Shown one piece after another: positions 5,254-59,010 of a stretch of DNA of 64,000 nucleotides. Position 1 is the first letter of the stretch; every line of letters starts with the position of its first letter. A program made the translations under genes and the position numbers. The notes below the pieces were generated by a model. That model had not been told where the DNA came from. It saw only the letters and a program-made list of their open reading frames with translations, and made no database searches. The DNA is from a virus. The stretch lies in IMG/VR virus record IMGVR_UViG_3300045988_163435, positions 30,425 through 94,424 of that record; one strand, written 5' to 3'.

Positions 5254-8040
5254 GATATTGACAAGGGAAACATGCTTTTCTATGACGCCAGAGTAAGTAC
5301 TATTGGTGGCAAACCAACATTGGCTGGCGACTATAGTATTGAAAAATACAATAAGGCAGATGGCTCAAAAAATCGAGAAGCTGCATTAAGAAACGAGATG
5401 CTTGATATGCAGTGGGCTGCAATGACTGGAGACGACGCGTTAAGGCAACAGTTTAGACCTGGTAACTTCGATATTATGGACCAGACATCATATGAGCTGG
5501 AGTTATATAGATTTGGCTTATCAAGAGAATATGTTGAACAAATGACACCAAAGCAAAGAGTGGCCAAATATGAAGAATTATCATACGACCCTAGATGGTC
5601 AGACATTTCTTTGATGTCAACTGCTGCGAGACTTAAAAAAGCATGTATGAACGCCAAAAAGCTTATCGCCATGTCAGCTGTTCAAGAAATCGCTCACGAC
5701 GTATTTAGTATGATGACTGGTCCTGGACGATTCAGAATAGCGCAGAACGATATTAGACCGATGAATATTGCCGGTTTAGATATAGGTGAGAGTGGTTCTG
5801 CATATCTTGATGAATTGGTTGACTCTGAAGGAACACTACAGAGCATTAATCTTGGTATGCTTGTTGGTGCGGCAGCAGATGGAGTTAAGAAGCCTGTGCT
5901 TGCCAGAACAAATATAGGCATGTACACAAATAAGATATACACACTATTGCTTAGATATGGGGCTACTCCAAGGCAGGCGATGTTGTTTGTGACACAGCCG
6001 ATAATGCGAGAAGTTACGGAAGCTTATGATAACGCGTCAAATAATGGATTTGCCGATGTGCAGAGAATAATTAGAAATCTCGAGCAGACAATAAATCCTA
6101 AGGGCGGCCTGTATAACACGTATAATTCCAAAACCAATAAAGATGTGCAGACGCTAATACTGGATGAGTACGATCTTGTATCGAGATTGATAGATGATAA
6201 GAATTTTGATGCAGCTTCATATATCGACAATGAAAATTCGCCAATGTTACAAGTTGACATGAGAATTCTTGCCGCACTTAGAGAACTTGACAACGCGGTT
6301 AATAGTCTTGAAGGACTCAACCAATTCTCAAGGTTTACCTCTATAGTCAATGGAGAATCACCGTCATTAGCGAAGTCTATCGAAAAGGAGTCTCGTAGAG
6401 AAAAATTCCTTATTGATCAAGCTGGAATTAAACCTGCATTCAACGTTGTTAAATTGGATGAGCAGAATAATCCTACAAAGGTAAAAACACTTGAAATTAG
6501 TGACATAAAATCACAAATACCGTTCATTGGCGCACGTATTGAATCTCAGGAAGCGCTACATAACGCGTTGCTTGAGGTGCAGTCGTCATATAATTCTCAT
6601 GCGTTCAGAACCGCGGCAAAAATTGTTGCCAACCTTTGCGGTAGAGATTACGCCAACGAGACTATCAATAGATCGGTTCATAAGGCAATGGCGATATACA
6701 AGATGATCAATGGTACCGATATTAAGACATACGGAACTGGAATGCCATCTCATATTTACGGTGTGTTTAATCCAAATACTCGATCACAAAAAGAGTTTGA
6801 TGAGAATGTTGACTTCTATTATAAGAACTTTGCCGGTTATTATAATGAAATGATAACAAAACATATGGATGAACTTTATGGAAATAAATTCATAGAATCC
6901 ATTATTCAAATGGATGCTGATAAATATATGCCAGTACCATATTTGAAAACATCTCTTAATAATCTTGACGAGGACGGCAGACAGGCTATTATGGATGACT
7001 GGAGTGCGCTTGTTAGGAGCGATAACGAAGAAATCCAGATGCTTGGTGTTCAACTGGGGATTTATTTCGCGCTACGAAGCAATATGAGATATAGCCCAAG
7101 TACACCGTATCATTTGATGCCTGTTGATGTAATAAAGTCTATTCCGAATCTTGACAGGCTTGATCGTATGGAGGCGGTCAGAAATCCTCAGATCGATCTG
7201 AATGAGTTTTTAGGATTGTATATTTTGAACAACACAAATCAGCCTGGTCTTGTACCTAGTGTTGACTTGCAATATTTGTCACAAGGCGATCCTACATTTG
7301 GAGCAGCTGTGATAGATTTTAATGCGTCGAATAAAGACTTGTCAGACGGAAAGTCAGGTTACAATCCTATATCAAATATTGGAAGATTCTATGTAAGACC
7401 ATTTAGTGAAACAGAAGGTTCTGACAGAATGGCAAAATTATCTAAGGCAATTGGGCTAAAGGTTAGAAAGGATAGCATTACTGTCTCAAGACCGGTTGTA
7501 AAGTCAGGTAATAACATAATCATGTTGACAAACAGAGATCTTGCGTTCAAAGTAAATGGTTTTGAGATAGGCAAAGATATGGAAGTGATGTTCAGAACGC
7601 TAACTCCTAAGGGGGTACGTAACGGAGTGTCTGAATACTTTGGCGACATTCTAGATGATGGTGTTTATGGAGATTTTATTGCCGAGGAGAATCCAGAGAC
7701 CGAAGAGAATCCAAATGACGTCATTACTGATGAGCAAGGATTCACTCCAAGCGGTCTTAGTTTCACACCAAGCTTCGCCACGGGAAGTATTGAGCAACAT
7801 TCTCCAGCAATGGAAGGAACGACAGAGTTGTCATTAAGCGCACTTGGTATCAGCCAAGGATCTCTTAGTAAAAAATTTGTTAGACAGCGGGTTGCCAATG
7901 GTCTTAATATCAACATGTCTGACACAGAGCTGTTGAAAAAGTTTGGTTTTAACACAGACGACGCGACAATAACATCGGAAGGCCGTAAGAAAGTGGCCGA
8001 TCTCCTCAGAGAGGAGCTTAATAAATTAAATTTGTGCTAA
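5254..8040 (+). CDS. virion RNA polymerase-like giant protein, exon 2 (928 aa)
   Basis: The frame is open from the intron 3' end. The first residues DIDKGNMLFYD complete the DFDID motif. The ATG at 5242 (MVVK) lies inside the intron P9/3' tail and is probably not a real start. Confidence 0.6.
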   Translation, partial: DIDKGNMLFYDARVSTIGGKPTLAGDYSIEKYNKADGSKNREAALRNEMLDMQWAAMTGDDALRQQFRPGNFDIMDQTSYELELYRFGLSREYVEQMTPKQRVAKYEELSYDPRWSDISLMSTAARLKKACMNAKKLIAMSAVQEIAHDVFSMMTGPGRFRIAQNDIRPMNIAGLDIGESGSAYLDELVDSEGTLQSINLGMLVGAAADGVKKPVLARTNIGMYTNKIYTLLLRYGATPRQAMLFVTQPIMREVTEAYDNASNNGFADVQRIIRNLEQTINPKGGLYNTYNSKTNKDVQTLILDEYDLVSRLIDDKNFDAASYIDNENSPMLQVDMRILAALRELDNAVNSLEGLNQFSRFTSIVNGESPSLAKSIEKESRREKFLIDQAGIKPAFNVVKLDEQNNPTKVKTLEISDIKSQIPFIGARIESQEALHNALLEVQSSYNSHAFRTAAKIVANLCGRDYANETINRSVHKAMAIYKMINGTDIKTYGTGMPSHIYGVFNPNTRSQKEFDENVDFYYKNFAGYYNEMITKHMDELYGNKFIESIIQMDADKYMPVPYLKTSLNNLDEDGRQAIMDDWSALVRSDNEEIQMLGVQLGIYFALRSNMRYSPSTPYHLMPVDVIKSIPNLDRLDRMEAVRNPQIDLNEFLGLYILNNTNQPGLVPSVDLQYLSQGDPTFGAAVIDFNASNKDLSDGKSGYNPISNIGRFYVRPFSETEGSDRMAKLSKAIGLKVRKDSITVSRPVVKSGNNIIMLTNRDLAFKVNGFEIGKDMEVMFRTLTPKGVRNGVSEYFGDILDDGVYGDFIAEENPETEENPNDVITDEQGFTPSGLSFTPSFATGSIEQHSPAMEGTTELSLSALGISQGSLSKKFVRQRVANGLNINMSDTELLKKFGFNTDDATITSEGRKKVADLLREELNKLNLC

Positions 8041-34322: not shown

Positions 34323-35093
34323 CGATTGTGTTACCTCGCAAGCTTTTTATCTCGCGAATCTTTAGATTTCTTATCTCTAAAGTCCAGCGTACATTTTCAT
34401 CTCAAAAGAGATGCCGGATACTCTTGGTGGAATTATATTCTTTTTATTAAAAGTTTCATCCACTACGCGTTACAATGATAATCTTTTTAAGGATTATTTT
34501 ATCTCGGTATTCTCTAAGAATTTTTTACGAATATCATTACATCTTTCGCCATAACAAATTTTCCTTATAGTTCCAAATGGCCTATTAAGAATCATTGATA
34601 TTTTCTTTGGCGTAAGATGTTTGATAAAAAACATTTCATAAATATTAAATAGTTCTTTATCAGTAAAACTTATGCCGTTATGTTTCAACCCAATTAAATA
34701 AGCGTGACGTTGTTGCTGCTCATCAGAAGACCATTCGAGATTATATAAAGCATTGTTAAGCTTATTGCCATCTTTGTGGTTCACTGTTCTGTAATTATTT
34801 GGATTTTCTATAAACGCTTCAGCCAATATTCGATGTAGATATCTATAGTAATATTTGTTGTCTTTGAACAATCTTACTTGAATATATCCACTATTAGACT
34901 TTCTGCGTCCAATTGACATAAAGTTTCCATTTTTAGTTAATATTCTTCCATCTGAATAAACTGTGTATTCAGGAAATTCTTTTATATTCTTAAATAATTC
35001 CATAATATATGGTTTATAAAATAATATTAATAGAGTTCACCGATTTTACCCGGTTATTCACTAACGAATCACTTCGTTAGGCAGCAAGTTCAT
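34323..35093 (-). mobile_element. group I-like intron 3 of the MCP gene (771 nt) carrying an HNH endonuclease ORF
   Basis: 5' splice site after CAGU, which pairs with GCUG (U.G). The 3' end AACACAATCG aligns with the intron 1 end AACATAATTG. About 180 nt of core are shared with intron 1, with compensatory changes in three helices. Confidence 0.7.
34494..35003 (-). CDS. HNH homing endonuclease (NUMOD4/HNH_3-like), intron-encoded
   Basis: The 169-aa ORF shows YTVYSDGRI...GYIQVRL...RYLHRILAEAF...VNHKDGNKLNNALYNLEWSS, the classic phage HNH endonuclease pattern. It is AT-rich. Confidence 0.85.
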   Translation of the reverse strand: MELFKNIKEFPEYTVYSDGRILTKNGNFMSIGRRKSNSGYIQVRLFKDNKYYYRYLHRILAEAFIENPNNYRTVNHKDGNKLNNALYNLEWSSDEQQQRHAYLIGLKHNGISFTDKELFNIYEMFFIKHLTPKKISMILNRPFGTIRKICYGERCNDIRKKFLENTEIK

Positions 35094-36291
35094 ACTGATA
35101 GCCTCGATACTCTGGTTGTCCCTTAATCTGACACTTGAAGATATTTGGCTGATCAGGTGTGCCAATATAGAAAATGTCAAATCTGTAAGACTGTGCTACT
35201 CCACCTTCAGGATGCAGTACCTTGTTACGAACAGGATCATCATACATTGGAAGTACGTTAAGCTTAACCTTAACTCCCAATGGAGCGATCCACTCTGTTA
35301 CCTGATAGTCAGTGAGTGACACTGCGTTACCAGGAGCAAAGTTAGCACTGGTCTTGTTGAAATATGAAGGGTTCTGGGTTGACATCATAGGCATCCAACC
35401 AGAAGCGGTATTCTTAGCCTCACGGTTAAAAATAAGCGCACCCTTTTCTCCAGTGTTGATTACAAAAGTGCGATCACCGAAATCAAGCTTAGCAGCAGAC
35501 AGCTCATAAAGAGCGTCGAGAATCAGCTTCATGACAGAATGAGTATCGTTGTAATACATGATATTACCATACTCCATCTGCTCGAAGAGACCAGCTCCTG
35601 TCTTGATGGCATTTCCACTCTTTCCGATGTTGAGATATTCTCCATTAGCGTTTCTATTGGAACGACCAAACAGAATAGCGTTGTTTTTATAGTCGCTAAA
35701 GGTCTGCTCGAACTCCCACTCAACATTGTGCATCCACATGTTTGATGTCGTGTGCTCAATCTTCCCACCAGCAGTCTCCTTTACAATAGGAATACCGACA
35801 GCAAGTTTCTTATTAAGCATCGAACCTGGAACCTTGTGCTGAAGACGAATGGTAGACCACTCGTTGCGCATAGATACCGGAGTCGAGAACGAAATATCGC
35901 CAACCTTCCTTGACAGCTCACGCTCGACGAACGCAGCTTCAATAGAGAATTTCTCTCCTGCAAGAAGTCTCTCGGCAGGCACTCCGTTGACGTTCCCTCC
36001 GGCAAGTTCGACCTTGTATATGGCCTGACTTCCCTCCATGCGAGGATCGCCAAGAATTCTGAACTGATAAATCTCATTCAAGTTGCCTACTACATACTCG
36101 CCATCTGAGCACCAATCCTCGTTGAACACAAGATAGAACGGAGTGGTATTCGCACCGACCATTCCAGATGCTGATGTCACAGGAGTTCCATCTTCAAGAC
36201 GAGCCTCTACAAGAGGTACGTTTCTACGGCTTGAACCAATAACCTCCCACGTATACTCTGAATCCAAATATGTTATTCTGCTTTTACGCAA
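35094..36291 (-). CDS. major capsid protein, exon 3 (399 codons + 1 nt)
   Basis: The track ORF 35077..36291 begins at TTG, not ATG. It directly follows the intron 2 3' end (P9 hairpin CATTACG-GAAA-CGTAATG then AG). Its 404-aa size is too short for a crAss-like MCP unless it is joined to the flanking exons. Confidence 0.75.
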
Positions 36292-36537
36292 CTCATTACG
36301 TTTCCGTAATGTTCAGACTATACCATCATCTCTTTTTTCAAGAGATGGATCTATTATAGTCGTTGAACCTTCATTAATAACATTAATGCTTGGCTGCTGA
36401 TTGGCCAATCTGCAAAATTTTTAAACATTCACGTTTACCTTTACAGGTTGCGTTGTAGTTTTTGCAGCTCTAAGGCGTTTCCAGCAATTTAAGATCTTTG
36501 CTTTATCATATCGCTATGATAAGGGACAATTCATTTT
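36292..36537 (-). mobile_element. canonical ORF-less group I intron 2 of the MCP gene (246 nt)
   Basis: On the minus strand: P1 GGAU|AAAAUGAAUU-GUCC. P2: TTATCATA-GCGA-TATGATAA. P element: AAATTGCTGGAAACG. Q element: AATCAGCAGCCAAG. P6: CATTAAT-GTT-ATTAATG. R element: GGTTCAACGACTATAAT. P8: CATCTCTT-GAAAAA-AGAGATG. S element: GGTATAGTCTG. P9 has a GAAA loop. The intron ends in G. Confidence 0.8.
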
Positions 36538-36681
36538 ATCCTCGAATTCGTGAATAGGGAATGTATTAAGGAATGTATCCCAACTCTTCCCCCTATAATA
36601 AGCAAGCAACTGAACCATTACGTTAGTTGCCTTCTGTGGCGCAAGTTGATAAATAGCGCCCAAGTGATTTTCTTTAGTTAG
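36538..36681 (-). CDS. major capsid protein, exon 2 (48 aa)
   Basis: By-eye translation gives LTKENHLGAIYQLAPQKATNVMVQLLAYYRGKSWDTFLNTFPIHEFED. The open frame is bounded by TAA upstream and TAG downstream and has no start codon. Confidence 0.7.
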
Positions 36682-52322: not shown

Positions 52323-55300
52323 TTAACTATCCGTTACATTATCGCTATGTTTACGCAACCGATTGTCATAATTCCTAGTAAAGTAATCATCATTGCCCAA
52401 ATAATCGCTCTCAACAACGTTTTTAGATGAAGATGGGTCACCATTATACGTAACCATAAACTGTTCGCGATAGAGCATTAAAAGGCCTAAGGCACGAACA
52501 CGGTCAACATTTATGTCTGGATTATATAGCATAAGTTCCTTTATTAGTGCCCTATTGCGTATTCTAGTAAGATTAAATACAGTAGTCTCTTCACCGTCTT
52601 CGCTAGATTGTATAGTCACAGGTTTAAGAAGCCAATCGCGAATCAACCTGTTGGCATAATCGTTTACAGGCTTGGTAGCCTTTACTCCCTTGCTGTTGTT
52701 ACCTACGCCTATATTTTTAATAATATCCTTGTCTTTGAGATATTCAGGAGTATCAGCCAAGAGGTATAAACAATTCATTCTGGAAAAATATGAATAAACA
52801 CCCTTGATGTTACAATTATGGGTTACAACGTAATCTCCTACCATATATAACCCGTCATCAGAATCAACAGTTACGCACTTACATCTCTTTCTGCCAACAT
52901 ATTCAATCTTGTCTATGGCCGTTTTATATAAAAAAGCGCCAGCCTTACTCCCTTTGATTTCAGGATGGTTAATATGCTGCTTTTCAACCTTTCGTGGAAG
53001 ATTAAATATCCTTTCATTTGTTGCAATTGCGACCCTATAAGTTTTCTTACACCTATAAGTATTGCCTGAGTTGCTAAATAAATGATCTCTTTCTTCTACA
53101 CATTTATGATACCGAGCATACATACCAAGGCTCCTGCATAACAAAATCAGATCTTCTGCAAGCTTTTTTGAAATGGTTATATATATATTAGAACCCTTTT
53201 TTGTAGCGCATCCATCGCCATCCATCAAACCACGAAGTAATTCAATTCTCGTATTTTTATCGTTATATAAATATACGTCCGGAATAAATTTTGTTTGGCT
53301 ATTTTTATGTAATAATCCAAGAGAGTCTAATTTTTTATCAATATCATCTATATATATATGCCAAGAATAACCTTTATTACCAATGTGTTTTATTTCATAA
53401 GGAACAATTGTTTTATAGAACTCAGCATCTTGTTGGGCAGACGATATCTGGACATTCCTACGCCTTTTATTATGCGTCTTATTTTTAGGAAACTTTGTTA
53501 ACGCTCCCTCTGATATAAGCAAACCCAACGTATATGGATCGATAGGAACGTCTTTATGTTCATAATTTACAGCTCCTCCGTTCTGAATAAAAAATTTGTG
53601 TTGACCAGAATTTGTATATAAGCCATTATTTAATATATCAATTGTCGTTGTATTATACGGCTTTTTTCTACCATATTTAATTACATTCCAAATATGATTT
53701 TTACTCGCATCAACAAATCTACCATCACTGAGTGTCAACCTATATATATCATCTTCGCCATCTATAGGTACGTTTATAACCCGTACGGTTTTTCCATTTG
53801 GCGCAAAAAGTTTATCACCAATTTCAATATCACCCCAAAATTTTGTTTCACCGGTTGGTAATCTGACGATTTGATCATAAGGATGCGCTTCATATAGAAT
53901 TTTCGCGTTATAGAACAATCCCAGTTTTCTCAGCATTTCAAAGTTATCGTCGGCAAACTGATGTCTTCCAGTATACTCGGCTACAATTGTATCTGTCCAC
54001 AAATCCAATACAAATGTTGAGGAAAGGGACATAGTATCAGCCTCATCATTATCAACCGGGTCGTGGCCTATGATATATCTCTGAGGAAACACTTTTCCTT
54101 GTGCGTCTTTCTCTGGCATTTTGAATATCTCAAGAGCGCCGGAAACCTTGTTGTCTTTTAACGGGAAATCACGAATCGGCTGATCGCCTGTCAATTTGAA
54201 CGAGACCGTACCATCTTTCTCCTGTGTCAAATCTCCGACATAAACATCATCAAACGTATGTGGATCATTGTCAATCTCAGCAAGGCGCTGGGTAAGGTCA
54301 GCGACAGGAAAAATATTACCCCTTGTGCGAAGAATGGCTTCCTGTGGAGTTATTGGAATCTCGGCAATGCACTTTGTTATTGTATTGATATCAGTTGAAT
54401 TGTATTTAACGTTATATCTATTTACAAGAATCTCAAGCAACGCCTTTGTTACATCAGAATTACCTTGTTCGTCATAGCAGCCTGACCTGTTTATATATGC
54501 CGGGAAAAAATATGTGAACGTAGGTCTCCCCTGACCCTCCTTATCGTAAACATTTTTAAGTCCATATGTTTTGTATCCGACAGGGTTATACATAATCTCC
54601 TGCATTGCTGCGAAGTCGGATTGCTGGTCACCAGAGGTTCCAAAGAGATACATAAGTCCGAATACAGATTCTCCATCAGAAACAGACGGCAATAGGTTAC
54701 TCCACAACGTAAGAAGATTATCAAACGTACCAGCTTCCTCAAAGAGATATAACACGCCTCTGGTTCCCCTAAGCTTTGATGCGTCGTTTTGTGAAGACTT
54801 ACCGACAACTGAATTAAGAGTTCCTTTATTCGTACCAGTATTAAGGTCTTTATAACCCATTTGCCAGTTCATGTCAGCCAATGAGTTATATAGTCTTCTT
54901 GATGGCCACTGCATGTTTTCCGCAATGAAATCTATGTAGAACTGAAATTTATCAAGCGTCTGGTCACCACCGGTCAACTTTGCCTTGTCGGTTGCCGTTA
55001 TATATGAAACAACACGCTTGTTTACTTCAAACGATTCTCCTAATATAAAACGCTTGGCAAGCATTGCGGCGGCACAGAATGACTTACCGCACCCACGTCG
55101 AGCCAACTCAGCAGCCATCAGACCGTGTTCTCTCGCCTGATTTAAATAATGAAATCTATAATAATTCCCCTCCCATGAAAAAGGAAAGTCAATTACACGC
55201 ATCGCTTTTCTACCTCCATTGCTGGATTTCTTTAGGAGAGAGATAGGACAATAATTCAAAAAGAAATAATGATCCCCTGTTATCCACTCACCGTCATATG

Positions 55301-55664
55301 GTCTTACGTAGCCATACAAGCACCTTCTGCGCTCTTCGCGTATCCATTTGCCAAATTCGCTGTTAGGATTGGCGTTCGGTCTTAAATCGGTAAATCTACC
55401 ATACTTTTGGTAATGTATCGCGGACGGTCTGAAATAATCCATATCCTCTATAATGTGCGGTTGGGTTATATCTACTATTATTTTACCTTCTGAATCCCTT
55501 GGAAGGTCACGAGCCCTTGGCTTATTTGGAGACACCATAGACCGTATGAAAGGAACGTTATTGAAGAAATCCCAAAACTGATCCTGTACCTCCTGTGGCT
55601 GTTTATCAAGCCCAAGTTCACTAATCGGGGTCTGATATTTATTAAGAACAATATCTTCGTACAT
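52323..55664 (-). CDS. terL: terminase large subunit, intein-containing precursor (1113 aa)
   Basis: Walker A ARRGCGKSF, Walker B VLYLFEEAG and nuclease-domain-like HDPVDNDEAD...AKILYE. The ORF is about 360 aa too long because of an in-frame intein. Confidence 0.8.
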   Translation of the reverse strand: MYEDIVLNKYQTPISELGLDKQPQEVQDQFWDFFNNVPFIRSMVSPNKPRARDLPRDSEGKIIVDITQPHIIEDMDYFRPSAIHYQKYGRFTDLRPNANPNSEFGKWIREERRRCLYGYVRPYDGEWITGDHYFFLNYCPISLLKKSSNGGRKAMRVIDFPFSWEGNYYRFHYLNQAREHGLMAAELARRGCGKSFCAAAMLAKRFILGESFEVNKRVVSYITATDKAKLTGGDQTLDKFQFYIDFIAENMQWPSRRLYNSLADMNWQMGYKDLNTGTNKGTLNSVVGKSSQNDASKLRGTRGVLYLFEEAGTFDNLLTLWSNLLPSVSDGESVFGLMYLFGTSGDQQSDFAAMQEIMYNPVGYKTYGLKNVYDKEGQGRPTFTYFFPAYINRSGCYDEQGNSDVTKALLEILVNRYNVKYNSTDINTITKCIAEIPITPQEAILRTRGNIFPVADLTQRLAEIDNDPHTFDDVYVGDLTQEKDGTVSFKLTGDQPIRDFPLKDNKVSGALEIFKMPEKDAQGKVFPQRYIIGHDPVDNDEADTMSLSSTFVLDLWTDTIVAEYTGRHQFADDNFEMLRKLGLFYNAKILYEAHPYDQIVRLPTGETKFWGDIEIGDKLFAPNGKTVRVINVPIDGEDDIYRLTLSDGRFVDASKNHIWNVIKYGRKKPYNTTTIDILNNGLYTNSGQHKFFIQNGGAVNYEHKDVPIDPYTLGLLISEGALTKFPKNKTHNKRRRNVQISSAQQDAEFYKTIVPYEIKHIGNKGYSWHIYIDDIDKKLDSLGLLHKNSQTKFIPDVYLYNDKNTRIELLRGLMDGDGCATKKGSNIYITISKKLAEDLILLCRSLGMYARYHKCVEERDHLFSNSGNTYRCKKTYRVAIATNERIFNLPRKVEKQHINHPEIKGSKAGAFLYKTAIDKIEYVGRKRCKCVTVDSDDGLYMVGDYVVTHNCNIKGVYSYFSRMNCLYLLADTPEYLKDKDIIKNIGVGNNSKGVKATKPVNDYANRLIRDWLLKPVTIQSSEDGEETTVFNLTRIRNRALIKELMLYNPDINVDRVRALGLLMLYREQFMVTYNGDPSSSKNVVESDYLGNDDYFTRNYDNRLRKHSDNVTDS
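52815..53888 (-). mobile_element. intein (about aa 593-950 of TerL) with LAGLIDADG homing-endonuclease domain; class-3-like
   Basis: C-terminal block G is GDYVVTHN followed by +1 Cys (CNIKG). N-terminal block A is AHPYDQIVRLPTGE, with no Cys/Ser at position 1. Block B is SKNHIW (Trp two residues after His). Block F is RKRCKCVTV. Dodecapeptides are LGLLISEGAL and LLRGLMDGDGCA. The N-terminal boundary is uncertain by about 2 aa. Confidence 0.75.
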
Positions 55665-55666
55665 AA

Positions 55667-56218
55667 CTAATCATCAAAACCATCCTCAAATATTGTCTTC
55701 TCGCCGCCTCCTCTGACACGACCTATCTCGTTAAGCTCTTGTGTCACTGCTCGTTCGGCATCGGAAAGATCCTTCACAAGCTTGGGGACCATTGAACCCA
55801 TTGAAACCATGTTCTTCAAAGCAAGAATCTTATCTTTCTCCTCAAGCTGGGACAAATCTGTGGAGCGCATTTCTTTACGGATTTGGTCAACCATAAAGCG
55901 CGTATCCTCAAGGAGAAGAGTACTTGATGTTGTGGTATGTTTCTTATATATCTCCATGGCCTGTTTAAGCTCGTCTGACGGCTTGAATTTTGCTGGTAGC
56001 CCCTCCTGTGCTATGATCTCTTTTGCACGTTCCTGAGGATCTGTGATGTACATATATGTGCTCCTTGGATCAACCATAAAATAAAGGTATGACATCTGCT
56101 GGTAGAAAAAATCCTTCACGCGAGTCTTGTCTTTTCTGTAAAGCTCACGTATCGGCTTTATGAGCATCGCCTCTGGCGTCACAACTATCTTATAATCCTC
56201 GAAATCTATTAATCTCAT
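55667..56218 (-). CDS. hypothetical protein immediately upstream of TerL (small terminase candidate by position)
   Basis: 183-aa ORF ending 2 nt before the TerL start. No motif recognised. Confidence 0.3.
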   Translation of the reverse strand: MRLIDFEDYKIVVTPEAMLIKPIRELYRKDKTRVKDFFYQQMSYLYFMVDPRSTYMYITDPQERAKEIIAQEGLPAKFKPSDELKQAMEIYKKHTTTSSTLLLEDTRFMVDQIRKEMRSTDLSQLEEKDKILALKNMVSMGSMVPKLVKDLSDAERAVTQELNEIGRVRGGGEKTIFEDGFDD

Positions 56219-58826: not shown

Positions 58827-58859
58827 AACAACAAAATAATTTGAACAAAACAAACTTTG

Positions 58860-58931
58860 TTGCGGGGGCAGGGATCGAACCTGCGACCTCCAGATTATGA
58901 GCCTGGCGAGATACCACTTCTCCACCCCACA
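58860..58931 (-). tRNA. tRNA-Met (anticodon CAU; elongator or Ile2-type)
   Basis: By-eye cloverleaf on the minus strand: acceptor UGUGGGG/CCCCGCA, D arm GAGA-AGUGGUA-UCUC, anticodon arm CCAGG-CUCAUAA-UCUGG, T arm GCAGG-UUCGAUC-CCUGC. It lacks the three consecutive G-C pairs expected of an initiator. Confidence 0.85.
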
Positions 58932-58937
58932 ATATTG

Positions 58938-59010
58938 ATGCCGGTACCGGACTCGAACCGATATCCTTGGATTACAAAACCAAGATGCTAGCCCATTATA
59001 CCAACCGGCA
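58938..59010 (-). tRNA. tRNA-Thr (anticodon UGU) with irregular D arm
   Basis: Acceptor UGCCGGU/ACCGGCA, T arm AUCGG-UUCGAGU-CCGGU, anticodon arm UUGGU-UUUGUAA-UCCAA (U.U at 31:39). I could not draw a clean 4-bp D stem, although GG is present in the D loop. Confidence 0.6.

What the first reader, a model, noticed from the sequence alone, without database searches (positions are those of the whole stretch)
52815..53888. TerL carries a class-3-like intein (Trp-Cys-Thr signature, non-nucleophilic first residue) with a LAGLIDADG domain
The 1113-aa TerL ORF contains an in-frame insert of about 358 aa. It ends ...GDYVVTHN|CNIKG, that is, His-Asn then +1 Cys.

The insert starts around AHPYDQIVRLPTGE, so there is no Cys/Ser/Thr at intein position 1. 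Block B reads S-K-N-H-I-W (Trp two residues after the His). Block F has Cys where Asp is usual (RKRCKCVTV). Block G has Thr before His-Asn. Together these form the WCT triplet described for class 3 inteins, which splice through a branched thioester on the block F Cys.

The removed segment sits between AKILYE and CNIKG, so splicing restores an E-x-N-type nuclease-domain motif.
Basis: partly seen in the sequence, partly recalled or inferred. Interest (0 to 1): 0.65.

Follow-up and report, generated by a model that had tools for sequence, protein, structure and literature searches.

The report
Class 3 intein in phage terminase
The DNA-packaging enzyme of this crAss-like gut phage is interrupted, right after a catalytic residue, by a self-removing protein segment (an intein) of the rarer "class 3" type that also carries its own DNA-cutting mobility enzyme; this is a clear new example of a known kind of element, not a new kind.

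Summary
The terminase large subunit (TerL) ORF (52323-55664, minus strand, 1113 aa) carries a 358-aa in-frame insert at aa 593-950 (window 52815-53888). Alleles without the insert, 755 aa and 98-99% identical, fix the boundaries: ...LYE|A593...T-H-N950|C951.

The insert has every sequence mark of a class 3 intein: Ala1, His65/Trp67 (block B positions 10 and 12), Cys338 (block F position 4), Thr356-His-Asn (block G) and a +1 nucleophile. It also has two LAGLIDADG motifs.

Its best solved-structure sequence matches are the class 3 DnaB inteins. In 127 related inteins, block F Cys and block G Thr are invariant, Trp is present in 122, and 125 lack an N-terminal nucleophile.

It sits directly after the invariant Glu of the TerL nuclease D-E-D triad (the YE-x-N-x-x-G motif, as in T4 gp17).

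Less usual features are the +1 Cys and the nuclease-domain site. It belongs to a clade of inteins starting "AHPY" that occupies at least six sites in crAss-like TerLs.

Class 3 inteins in phage TerLs, and inteins in crAss-like TerLs, are already published. Verdict: new member of a known kind. The splicing mechanism is inferred, not shown.

The parts
52323..55664 (-). TerL precursor ORF, 1113 aa (N-extein + intein + C-extein)
   Evidence: ORF list. The intein-less form hits PHROG 6681 'terminase large subunit' at E 1.2e-95. The AF2 model of the intein-less allele matches T4 gp17 (3cpe) at Foldseek E 1.9e-13.
53889..55664 (-). N-extein, aa 1-592. It ends in ...NAKILYE, with E592 the invariant nuclease Glu. 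It also holds an unoccupied Walker A P-loop, RRGCGK|SF, around aa 190-197.
   Evidence: Collinear with intein-less alleles. E592 is invariant in 28 of 28 sequences, D535 in 26 of 27 and D696 in 31 of 31. In cr111_1 and DAC15 the P-loop site is occupied by a related intein, but not here.
52815..53888 (-). Intein, aa 593-950 (358 aa): HINT splicing domain split by a LAGLIDADG homing-endonuclease domain
   Evidence: Absent from the 755-aa alleles. AF2 pLDDT 88.4, pTM 0.90. Foldseek top hits are PI-SceI, TliVMA and PI-PfuI inteins at E 4e-18 to 2e-11. G+C is 0.337.
53850..53888 (-). Block A, AHPYDQIVRLPTG. Intein residue 1 is Ala593, which is not a nucleophile.
   Evidence: Boundary set by the intein-less allele. 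Ala is invariant in 41 intein-bearing alleles and occurs in 115 of 127 family members.
53682..53723 (-). Block B, GRFVDASKNHIWNV: Ser654 (B:7), His657 (B:10, intein His65), Trp659 (B:12, intein Trp67)
   Evidence: Aligned on H-Q-W of Msm and Mch DnaB-1. His is in 127 of 127 and Trp in 122 of 127 family members. Neither position varies among the 41 alleles.
53502..53528 (-). LAGLIDADG motif 1, LGLLISEGA (acidic residue is Glu)
   Evidence: Sequence; kept in 40 of 41 alleles, the other reading LGLIISEGA. Family consensus PYxLGxxLGDG.
53208..53240 (-). LAGLIDADG motif 2, LLRGLMDGDGC (acidic residue is Asp)
   Evidence: Pfam LAGLIDADG_3 at aa 807-857 and Hom_end at aa 797-884. Invariant in 41 alleles.
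52839..52886 (-). Block F, RCKCVTVDSDDGLYMV. Cys930 is F:4 (intein Cys338), the predicted initiating nucleophile.
   Evidence: Aligned on Cys118 of Msm DnaB-1 (RCVEVD). Cys in 127 of 127 family members. Invariant in 41 alleles.
52812..52835 (-). Block G, DYVVTHN|C: Thr948 (G:5), His949 (G:6), Asn950 (G:7), and Cys951 as +1 (G:8)
   Evidence: Thr in 127 of 127, His in 124 of 127, Asn in 127 of 127. The +1 residue is T in 62, S in 49 and C in 16. Intein-less alleles have Ser at this position.
52323..52814 (-). C-extein, aa 951-1113 plus the stop codon. It begins CNIKGVYSYF.
   Evidence: Collinear with the intein-less allele from SNVKGAYSYF.
52797..53924 (-). Intein plus its immediately flanking divergent extein tract, about 35 nt upstream and 18 nt downstream. 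This is the putative homing-site or co-conversion region.
   Evidence: There are 20-21 mismatches in the 90-nt bin spanning the junction, against mostly 0-9 per bin elsewhere, when compared with the intein-less L001 and L002. The flank residues G581, L582, C+1, I+3 and V+6 are shared with the distant intein-bearing lineage L008 but not with the intein-less L001.

Best explanation
This is a functional, mobile class 3 intein with a LAGLIDADG homing endonuclease. It is inserted in the nuclease domain of the TerL of a crAss-like (Steigviridae-like) phage, between the catalytic Glu592 and residue 593.

**Proposed splicing, by homology with experimentally studied class 3 inteins.**
1. Ala1 cannot make the usual N-S acyl shift. 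Instead Cys338 (block F position 4), helped by His65 and Trp67 of block B, attacks the Glu592-Ala593 peptide bond. The N-extein is carried as a branched thioester on block F.
2. The N-extein is passed by trans-thioesterification to Cys+1 (Cys951).
3. Asn358 cyclises, helped by His357, and releases the intein.
4. An S-N shift makes the peptide bond.

The product is a 755-aa TerL reading ...LYE-CNIKG..., with the Y-E-x-N-x-x-G nuclease motif made contiguous.

**Proposed mobility.** The LAGLIDADG domain cuts intein-less TerL alleles at this site and spreads the element by homing. That would explain why alleles with and without the intein coexist in nearly identical phages.

**Shown.** The boundaries, the signature residues, the fold, the family membership, purifying selection, and the intein-plus/intein-minus polymorphism.

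**Inferred.** That it splices, the order of the chemical steps, and endonuclease activity.
For: **Boundaries.** 755-aa alleles at 98-99% identity give ...LYE|SNVKG against ...LYE[A...THN]CNIKG.

**Signature.** The top PDB sequence hits are the class 3 inteins 6bs8 (E 3.3e-4) and 6rix (E 8.6e-4). HIW aligns on HQW, KC930V on RC118V and THN on THN. His65 and Trp67 have the same numbering as in Msm DnaB-1, Mle DnaB and Bvi IcmO (PMC5222942), and Trp67 the same as in MP-Be DnaB (PMC2807308).

**Family.** 16,610 representative clusters match at E<=1e-3. In 127 complete relatives, 125 lack a Cys/Ser/Thr at residue 1, Trp is in 122, Cys F:4 in 127, Thr G:5 in 127 and Asn in 127.

**Fold.** pLDDT 88.4; the model matches bifunctional intein endonucleases at E 4e-18.

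**Constraint.** All catalytic residues are invariant and both LAGLIDADG motifs are kept (one allele has a single L-to-I change in motif 1) in 41 alleles, although the intein has three times the variable-site density of the N-extein. Against a lineage with saturated synonymous divergence (pS about 0.77), pN/pS is 0.126 for the intein and 0.139 for its endonuclease part.

**Viability.** Intein-bearing TerL is seen on many independent contigs, up to about 96 kb, and is the only TerL-sized terminase ORF found in this window.

**Foreign origin and mobility.** G+C is 0.337 against 0.414. There is a divergent tract at the junction.
Against: No experiment. Splicing, the block F branched intermediate and endonuclease cleavage are all inferred.

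The +1 residue is Cys, whereas most class 3 inteins have Ser or Thr (111 of 127 here; PMC2807308). With Ala1 plus Cys+1, a class 2-type direct attack is chemically conceivable.

Sequence similarity to the crystallised class 3 inteins is weak (E about 1e-3 to 1e-4, and only blocks A-B and F-G align).

Model coordinates could not be read, so the distance from Cys338 to the scissile bond was not measured.

Pfam and NCBIfam splicing-domain models did not hit this sequence. Only endonuclease-region hits were obtained.
Confidence: 0.82

Rival explanations
1. A class 2 (KlbA-like) mechanism. Because the intein has Ala1 and Cys+1, Cys951 attacks the Glu592-Ala593 bond directly. The block F Cys is structural or dispensable.
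For: Ala1 together with Cys+1 is the class 2 combination described for Mja KlbA (PMC2807308). All alleles at this site have Cys+1, although the intein-less allele has Ser there.
Against: Class 2 inteins are defined as lacking the WCT triplet (PMC2807308), and here W, C and T are all present and invariant. The nearest relatives, at other TerL sites, have Ser or Thr at +1 with the same invariant F:4 Cys, so Cys+1 is a site-specific change within a class 3 lineage. In Bvi IcmO, which has WCT plus Cys+1, Cys+1 could not substitute for Cys F:4 (PMC5222942).
Confidence: 0.08
2. A decayed or non-splicing intein. The insert is a relic that no longer splices. These genomes would then be defective, or TerL would work with the insert in place.
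For: No splicing data exist. One allele (P0042, 1079 aa) has a 34-aa internal deletion in the intein. The intein has more variable sites than the exteins (21.8% against 6.8% for the N-extein and 11.7% for the C-extein).
Against: The insert separates the invariant catalytic Glu from the rest of its motif, so an unspliced TerL is unlikely to work. All splicing residues are invariant in 41 alleles. pN/pS is 0.13 over saturated synonymous divergence. Intein-bearing alleles occur on many contigs, including near-full-length genomes of about 95 kb. The cultured phages DAC15 and DAC17 carry a homologous intein at the TerL P-loop and are viable.
Confidence: 0.04
3. A standard class 1 intein whose true N-terminal Cys/Ser/Thr was missed because the boundary was drawn wrongly.
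For: None beyond the prior that most inteins are class 1. Two of 127 relatives have Ser at residue 1.
Against: Intein-less alleles place the boundary at E592|A593. The alternative registers would either delete the invariant Glu (LYNCNIKG) or give an intein that ends in Cys rather than His-Asn. Homologous inteins at five other TerL sites begin with the same AHPY.
Confidence: 0.01

Closest known systems
Class 3 inteins (prototype: mycobacteriophage Bethlehem 'DnaB' intein; also Msm DnaB-1, Mle DnaB, Dra Snf2; Tori et al. 2010, PMC2807308)
   Same: No nucleophile at residue 1. Trp at B:12 (Trp67, same number), Cys at F:4, Thr at G:5 and His-Asn at the end. Found in a phage gene. The MP-Be intein is also about 340 aa (C-terminal Asn341). 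The best PDB sequence hits are members of this class.
   Different: The +1 residue is Cys instead of Ser or Thr. The insertion is not in an ATPase P-loop but after the catalytic Glu of a nuclease domain. Sequence identity to the characterised members is low.
Burkholderia vietnamiensis Bvi IcmO intein (class 3 with Cys+1; Tori & Perler 2016, PMC5222942)
   Same: WCT triplet together with a natural Cys+1, so both branched intermediates would be thioesters. His65 and Trp67 have the same numbering.
   Different: Bvi IcmO is a 142-aa mini-intein without an endonuclease, on a bacterial plasmid gene. This one is 358 aa with a LAGLIDADG domain, in a phage TerL. [quoted passage not shown] In the sample here Cys+1 occurs at six or more different insertion sites.
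Mycobacteriophage TerL inteins (Kelley et al. 2016, PMC5050341)
   Same: Inteins, several of them class 3, with active LAGLIDADG endonucleases in phage large terminases. Insertion is at functional motifs. Intein-plus and intein-minus phage pairs exist.
   Different: All seven mycobacteriophage sites lie in the ATPase domain. This one is in the nuclease domain. The host phages are Crassvirales of Bacteroidota, not actinophages.
Inteins reported in crAss-like phage TerL (Yutin et al. 2021, PMC7886860)
   Same: An intein within the TerL of a crAss-like phage. Some TerLs carry two or more.
   Different: That paper reports TerL inteins for the Delta and Zeta groups. It describes them only as 'Hint-Hop type', without mechanistic class or site, and states that the alpha-gamma group genomes lack mobile-element insertions. 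The nearest annotated relatives of this TerL are Steigviridae.
P-loop inteins of cr111_1 and Bacteroides phages DAC15/DAC17 TerL
   Same: Same 'AHPY' class 3 intein clade, about 39% identity for cr111_1, same host gene, same LAGLIDADG architecture.
   Different: They sit at the Walker A site (GK|S, Ser+1) rather than the nuclease site. They are not annotated as inteins; the DAC15 TerL is labelled 'DarB-like antirestriction'.

Membership tests
Intein (HINT-domain protein-splicing element) | Precise in-frame insertion that is absent from orthologous or allelic host proteins | tested here: met
   The 755-aa alleles lack exactly aa 593-950. The DNA alignment breaks at 53888/53889.
Intein (HINT-domain protein-splicing element) | C-terminal His-Asn followed by a Cys, Ser or Thr at +1 | tested here: met
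   T948-H949-N950|C951. All are invariant in 41 alleles.
Intein (HINT-domain protein-splicing element) | HINT fold | tested here: met
   The AF2 model (pLDDT 88.4) matches PI-SceI, TliVMA and PI-PfuI. It also matches the mini-inteins Prp8, gp41-1, Msm DnaB-1 and Mch DnaB-1.
Intein (HINT-domain protein-splicing element) | Actual protein splicing (ligated exteins plus free intein) | not testable with these tools
   Requires expression or proteomics.
Class 3 intein | No Cys, Ser or Thr at intein residue 1 | tested here: met
   Ala593, with the boundary fixed by intein-less alleles. Ala is present in 115 of 127 relatives.
Class 3 intein | Trp at block B position 12, two residues after the B:10 His | tested here: met
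   H657-I-W659, aligned to H-Q-W of 6bs8 and 6rix. Trp in 122 of 127 relatives.
Class 3 intein | Cys at block F position 4 | tested here: met
   C930, aligned to Cys118 of Msm DnaB-1. Cys in 127 of 127 relatives.
Class 3 intein | Thr at block G position 5 | tested here: met
   T948. Thr in 127 of 127 relatives.
Class 3 intein | A +1 nucleophile able to accept the N-extein from block F. It is Ser or Thr in most members and Cys in Bvi IcmO. The Ser/Thr preference is an association, not a requirement (PMC2807308, PMC5222942). | tested here: met
   Cys951. In the family sample the +1 residue is T in 62, S in 49 and C in 16.
Class 3 intein | Obligate block F Cys and a block F branched thioester intermediate that forms before the block G intermediate | not testable with these tools
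   Needs C338A, C951A and N358A mutants and thiol-sensitivity assays.
Class 2 (KlbA-type) intein | No N-terminal nucleophile AND no WCT triplet (Asp at F:4) | tested here: not met
   The WCT triplet is present, so this is not filed as class 2.
LAGLIDADG homing endonuclease (intein-borne, PI-SceI-like) | Two LAGLIDADG motifs, each with a catalytic acidic residue, and the endonuclease fold | tested here: met
   LGLLISEGA (Glu) and LLRGLMDGDGC (Asp). Pfam LAGLIDADG_3 and Hom_end score above cut-off. Fold matches to PI-SceI and I-DmoI.
LAGLIDADG homing endonuclease (intein-borne, PI-SceI-like) | Site-specific cleavage of the intein-less allele | not testable with these tools
   Indirect evidence only: intein-plus/intein-minus polymorphism, a divergent junction tract, and pN/pS of 0.139 in the endonuclease part.
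Phage terminase large subunit (host protein) | ATPase domain plus an RNase H-like nuclease domain with a D-E-D triad | tested here: met
   PHROG 6681, E 1.2e-95. Foldseek hits to T4 gp17 (E 1.9e-13) and to the RB49 and G20c nuclease domains. D535, E592 and D696 are invariant or nearly so. No Pfam terminase family matched.

The most novel reading that the evidence does not exclude
The intein is not only a parasite. It could act as a redox-gated switch on DNA packaging.

Both catalytic nucleophiles are cysteines (Cys338 at F:4 and Cys+1), so both branched intermediates are thioesters. The element splits the catalytic Glu-x-Asn motif of the terminase nuclease. Oxidising conditions could therefore block TerL maturation reversibly, for example through a disulfide. 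Oxidation reversibly inhibits splicing of the class 3 Msm DnaB-1 intein, whose catalytic Cys then forms a disulfide (PMC6195587).

That would tie genome cutting and packaging of an anaerobe-infecting gut phage to the redox state of the host cell. The consistent change of residue 593 to Cys in every allele invaded at this site would then be adaptive rather than incidental.
Probability: 0.08. Interest if true: 0.65.

Novelty: new member of a known kind. Interest (0 to 1): 0.38.

Why it matters
**Annotation.** TerL is the standard phylogenetic marker for Crassvirales. Inteins that go unrecognised lengthen it to 1100-1765 aa and lead to mis-annotation. DAC15 TerL, for example, is labelled 'DarB-like antirestriction'.

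**Intein biology.** This adds a well-delimited class 3 intein with three useful properties:
- a natural Cys+1, previously characterised only in Bvi IcmO;
- an intact LAGLIDADG endonuclease;
- a new insertion site next to the catalytic Glu of the terminase nuclease.

It also shows that one 'AHPY' class 3 clade has spread to at least six sites of a single gene family. That makes it a good natural system for studying how inteins move to new sites.

**Experiments.** Intein-plus and intein-minus alleles that are 95% identical at the DNA level give a ready-made pair for homing assays. The intein is also a candidate class 3 splicing tool that tolerates Cys at +1.

None of this changes current understanding of how inteins work.

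Tried and rejected
**Searches that gave nothing useful**
- Pfam found no terminase family in either the precursor or the intein-less TerL. phmmer of the intein-less TerL against PDB sequences found nothing relevant. TerL identity therefore rests on PHROGs and on the fold.
- hhalign of a crAss-like nuclease-domain profile against the single T4 gp17 sequence was not significant (global mode failed; local mode E 0.095). The equivalence of E592 with T4 E458 rests on motif identity, strand position in the model, invariance and the fold match. It is not a residue-level structural alignment.
- NCBIfam gave only sub-threshold hits, to the endonuclease regions of intein-containing proteins.

**Things I could not do**
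- Model coordinates are not exposed to scripts. I could not measure the distance from Cys338 to the scissile bond.
- I tried to fetch the prototype MP-Be 'DnaB' intein. Bethlehem gp61 (DnaB-like) has no intein, and gp51 carries the RDF intein. Bethlehem also has a TerL intein, in gp10, outside the stretch I fetched. I did not establish which Bethlehem gene holds the prototype and did not pursue it.
- Tori & Perler 2011 (PMC3133030) is not held.

**Calculations that failed**
- Jukes-Cantor-corrected dN/dS failed because synonymous sites are saturated between the window and L008. I report uncorrected pN/pS instead.

**Ideas rejected**
- That alleles with the intein purge nearby Cys residues (C581G, C589I). 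Other intein-bearing lineages keep Cys at positions -4 and -3 (AKCLYE, AKCMYE, AKCCYE).
- That cr111_1 and DAC15 carry the same-site intein, as their 99% query coverage suggested. Their insert is at the P-loop, not the nuclease site.
Full report
**1. The observation**

The minus-strand ORF at 52323-55664 encodes 1113 aa. So aa 593-950 correspond exactly to window 52815-53888.

A search of the 5.8-billion-protein collection found at least 43 clusters of about 1113 aa at 91-99% identity. Directly below them it found many 755-aa proteins at 98-99% identity over the exteins. 1113 minus 358 is 755.

- The 755-aa alleles read ...FYNAKCLYE-SNVKGAYSYF...
- The window reads ...FYNAKILYE-[AHPYDQ...VVTHN]-CNIKGVYSYF....

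At the DNA level, an intein-less contig (L001) aligns to the window on both sides, at about 95% identity. The break is exactly at 53888/53889.

The insert is therefore real and precisely delimited. It begins with Ala, ends with His-Asn, and is followed by Cys. Shifting the register by one residue in either direction would either remove an invariant Glu or give a non-canonical intein end.

**2. What it is**

*Endonuclease and fold.*
- Pfam finds LAGLIDADG_3 and Hom_end above their cut-offs at aa 797-884.
- Two LAGLIDADG motifs with acidic residues are present: LGLLISEGA and LLRGLMDGDGC.
- An AlphaFold2 model was built from 27 homologues (pLDDT 88.4, pTM 0.90).
- It matches the bifunctional intein endonucleases PI-SceI, TliVMA and PI-PfuI at Foldseek E 4e-18 to 2e-11.
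- Its splicing domain matches mini-inteins, including the class 3 DnaB inteins.

*Signature.* By sequence, the best hits among all PDB chains are the class 3 inteins Msm DnaB-1 (6bs8, E 3.3e-4) and Mch DnaB-1 (6rix). The alignment places:
- ASKNHIW on ADAQHQW;
- RCKC930VTVD on VRC118VEVD;
- THN on THN.

In intein numbering the residues are His65, Trp67, Cys338, Thr356, His357 and Asn358. His65 and Trp67 have the same numbers as in Msm DnaB-1, Mle DnaB and Bvi IcmO (PMC5222942). Trp67 has the same number as in MP-Be DnaB (PMC2807308).

*Family.*
- An exhaustive HMMER search of 1.84 billion representatives gave 16,610 clusters at E<=1e-3 and 784 at E<=1e-30.
- The best ~190 proteins contain 127 complete intein copies.

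| Position | Residue counts in the 127 copies |
|---|---|
| Residue 1 | Ala 115, Gly 4, Glu 3, Ser 2, other 3 |
| B:10 | His 127 |
| B:12 | Trp 122 |
| F:4 | Cys 127 |
| G:5 | Thr 127 |
| G:7 | Asn 127 |
| +1 | Thr 62, Ser 49, Cys 16 |

This is the co-varying pattern that defines class 3 inteins: no N-terminal nucleophile plus the Trp-Cys-Thr triplet (PMC2807308).

**3. Where it sits**

The intein-less protein is a TerL:
- PHROG 6681, E 1.2e-95.
- The AF2 model (pLDDT 87.4) matches T4 gp17 at E 1.9e-13 and the RB49, G20c and P74-26 nuclease domains.

In the model, aa 588-592 form a beta-strand that ends at E592. In an alignment of 34 crAss-like TerLs, D535, E592 and D696 are invariant or nearly so. 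That is the D-E-D arrangement of terminase nucleases. The local string L-Y-E-x-N-x-K-G mirrors T4 gp17 Y-I-E458-L-N-S-T-G. That E458 is catalytic in T4 is from my own knowledge of the gp17 literature.

So the intein splits the motif directly after the probable catalytic Glu, and splicing restores it. Residue 593 is Asn or Ser in uninvaded TerLs and Cys in every invaded one.

**4. Evidence that it is alive**

- *Conserved residues.* In 41 full-length alleles the intein has 21.8% variable sites, against 6.8% in the N-extein. Even so, A1, H65, W67, C338, T356, H357, N358 and C+1 never vary. Both LAGLIDADG motifs are also kept, apart from one L-to-I change in motif 1 of a single allele.
- *Purifying selection.* Against a second intein-bearing lineage (L008) whose synonymous sites are saturated (pS 0.68-0.79), pN/pS is 0.126 for the intein. 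It is 0.139 for the endonuclease part, 0.043 for the N-extein and 0.073 for the C-extein. Both the splicing and the endonuclease parts are under purifying selection.
- *Distribution.* Intein-bearing TerL occurs on many independent contigs, up to about 96 kb.
- *Foreign composition.* G+C is 0.337 in the intein and 0.414 in the N-extein.
- *Junction tract.* Mismatches to the intein-less alleles pile up at the junction: 20-21 in the 90-nt bin spanning it, against mostly 0-9 per bin elsewhere.
- *Flank residues.* G581, L582, C+1, I+3 and V+6 are shared by the two distant intein-bearing lineages but not by the closely related intein-less allele.

This fits a homing-site or co-conversion tract that travels with the intein. 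It does not prove endonuclease activity.

**5. Wider context found on the way**

- *The phage.* It is crAss-like. The nearest annotated TerLs are Steigviridae: cr116_1 at 59.5%, and crAss001 at about 52%. No record in the phage collection exceeds 60% identity.
- *A related intein at another site.* cr111_1 and the cultured phages DAC15 and DAC17 have no insert at the nuclease site. They carry a homologous intein in the Walker A P-loop, which also starts AHPY, has HLW, KC(V/I)TVD and THN, and has Ser+1. That site is empty in the window.
- *Site map.* Mapping onto the intein-less protein shows crAss-like TerL inteins at K195, at about 297-308, at 342/343, at 507, at 592 and at about 623-633. There are up to three per protein, giving TerLs of 1697-1765 aa.
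- *Tree.* In a neighbour-joining tree the AHPY inteins of crAss-like TerLs form one clade with site-specific sub-clades. The YE^C (nuclease-site) group is monophyletic and deep.
- *Cys+1 elsewhere.* It also occurs at several other sites: KDNK^CKG, RG^CAKSY, V^CRGK, DK^CNVRF and DE^CGKY.

**6. Mechanism**

By homology, the sequence of steps would be:
1. Cys338 attacks the E592-A593 bond, assisted by His65 and Trp67.
2. The N-extein moves to Cys951.
3. Asn358 cyclises.
4. An S-N shift forms the E592-C593 peptide bond.

The main rival is a class 2-type direct attack by Cys+1, which the Ala1/Cys+1 combination makes conceivable. Three points count against it:
- Class 2 is defined by the absence of the WCT triplet (PMC2807308).
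- The closest relatives use Ser or Thr at +1 with the same invariant F:4 Cys.

All chemical steps here are inferred.

**7. Comparison with what is known, and novelty**

- Class 3 inteins were defined in 2010 (PMC2807308).
- They have been proposed to be of phage origin (stated in PMC5050341, citing Tori & Perler 2011).
- They had been found in phage terminases from the outset (PMC2807308).
- A database search in 2020 counted 1701 of them (PMC7891396).
- Mycobacteriophage TerLs carry inteins at seven sites, all in the ATPase domain, and some are class 3 with active LAGLIDADG enzymes (PMC5050341).
- Inteins in crAss-like TerLs were reported for the Delta and Zeta groups without mechanistic class or site (PMC7886860; review PMC10136315).
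- My literature searches found no description of class 3 inteins in Crassvirales or of a TerL nuclease-domain insertion site. The searchable library is incomplete, so this is absence of evidence only.

The element is therefore a new member of a known kind. It has three less common traits: Cys+1, the nuclease-domain site after the catalytic Glu, and membership of a clade that has colonised many sites of one gene.

**8. Verdict**

Interest is moderate to low, at 0.38. It is solid and useful for annotation and as an experimental system, but it would not surprise an intein specialist.

Noticed in passing
window 36294-36547 (-), with ORF 35077-36291 (-): There is a full-length group I intron (Rfam RF00028, 88.9 bits, E 2e-21) immediately upstream of an ORF. 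That ORF matches the PHROG major head protein profile only from profile position 65 onward. So the major capsid gene appears to be split by a short group I intron without an endonuclease gene, with exon 1 lying upstream of 36547. Yutin 2021 reports capsid-gene introns for the Delta and Zeta crAss groups, while this phage's TerL is nearest to Steigviridae.
   Followed up: partly
window 58859-59010 (-): Two adjacent tRNA genes, tRNA-Met(CAT) and tRNA-Thr(TGT), found by both ARAGORN and Rfam.
   Followed up: no
L004 1480-4812 (Bacteroides phage DAC15) and L003 1492-4791 (cr111_1): The TerLs of these phages (1110 and 1099 aa) carry an unannotated class 3 'AHPY' intein in the Walker A P-loop (GK|AHPY...THN|S). 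In RefSeq the DAC15 protein is labelled 'DarB-like antirestriction'.
   Followed up: yes
proteins P0160-P0213 (crAss-like TerLs), mapped on P0045: Related class 3 inteins occupy at least six different TerL sites: K195, about 297-308, 342/343, 507, 592 and about 623-633. There are up to three inteins in one TerL (P0165 at 1765 aa, P0181 at 1697 aa).
   Followed up: partly
L009 3618-7743: In another crAss-like lineage the TerL gene is called in two pieces. They are separated by an ORF with an HNH_3 domain (5506-5841). The downstream piece carries the same nuclease-site intein. This is probably an intron with a homing endonuclease gene, a few dozen codons upstream of the intein site.
   Followed up: no
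protein P0042 (1079 aa allele), intein between ...TYRCK and AGAFLYK...: One otherwise 95%-identical allele has a 34-aa in-frame deletion inside the intein. It lies between the endonuclease core and block F. This may be the beginning of endonuclease decay, or an assembly variant.
   Followed up: no
window 52797-52814 and 53889-53924 (extein flanks of the intein): Five flank residues (G581, L582, C+1, I+3, V+6) go with intein presence. Two intein-bearing lineages whose synonymous sites are saturated share them. The intein-less allele, 95% identical at the DNA level, has C, I, S, V and A instead. Whether this reflects co-conversion, immunity of the homing site or a splicing requirement is open.
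   Followed up: partly
window 55667-56218 (-) and upstream genes (L001 4519-5998): The gene just upstream of TerL (183 aa) has no PHROG or Pfam match and might be the small terminase subunit. Further upstream are genes with a Sequestin (PF21825) hit and a weak Cpn10 hit.
   Followed up: no
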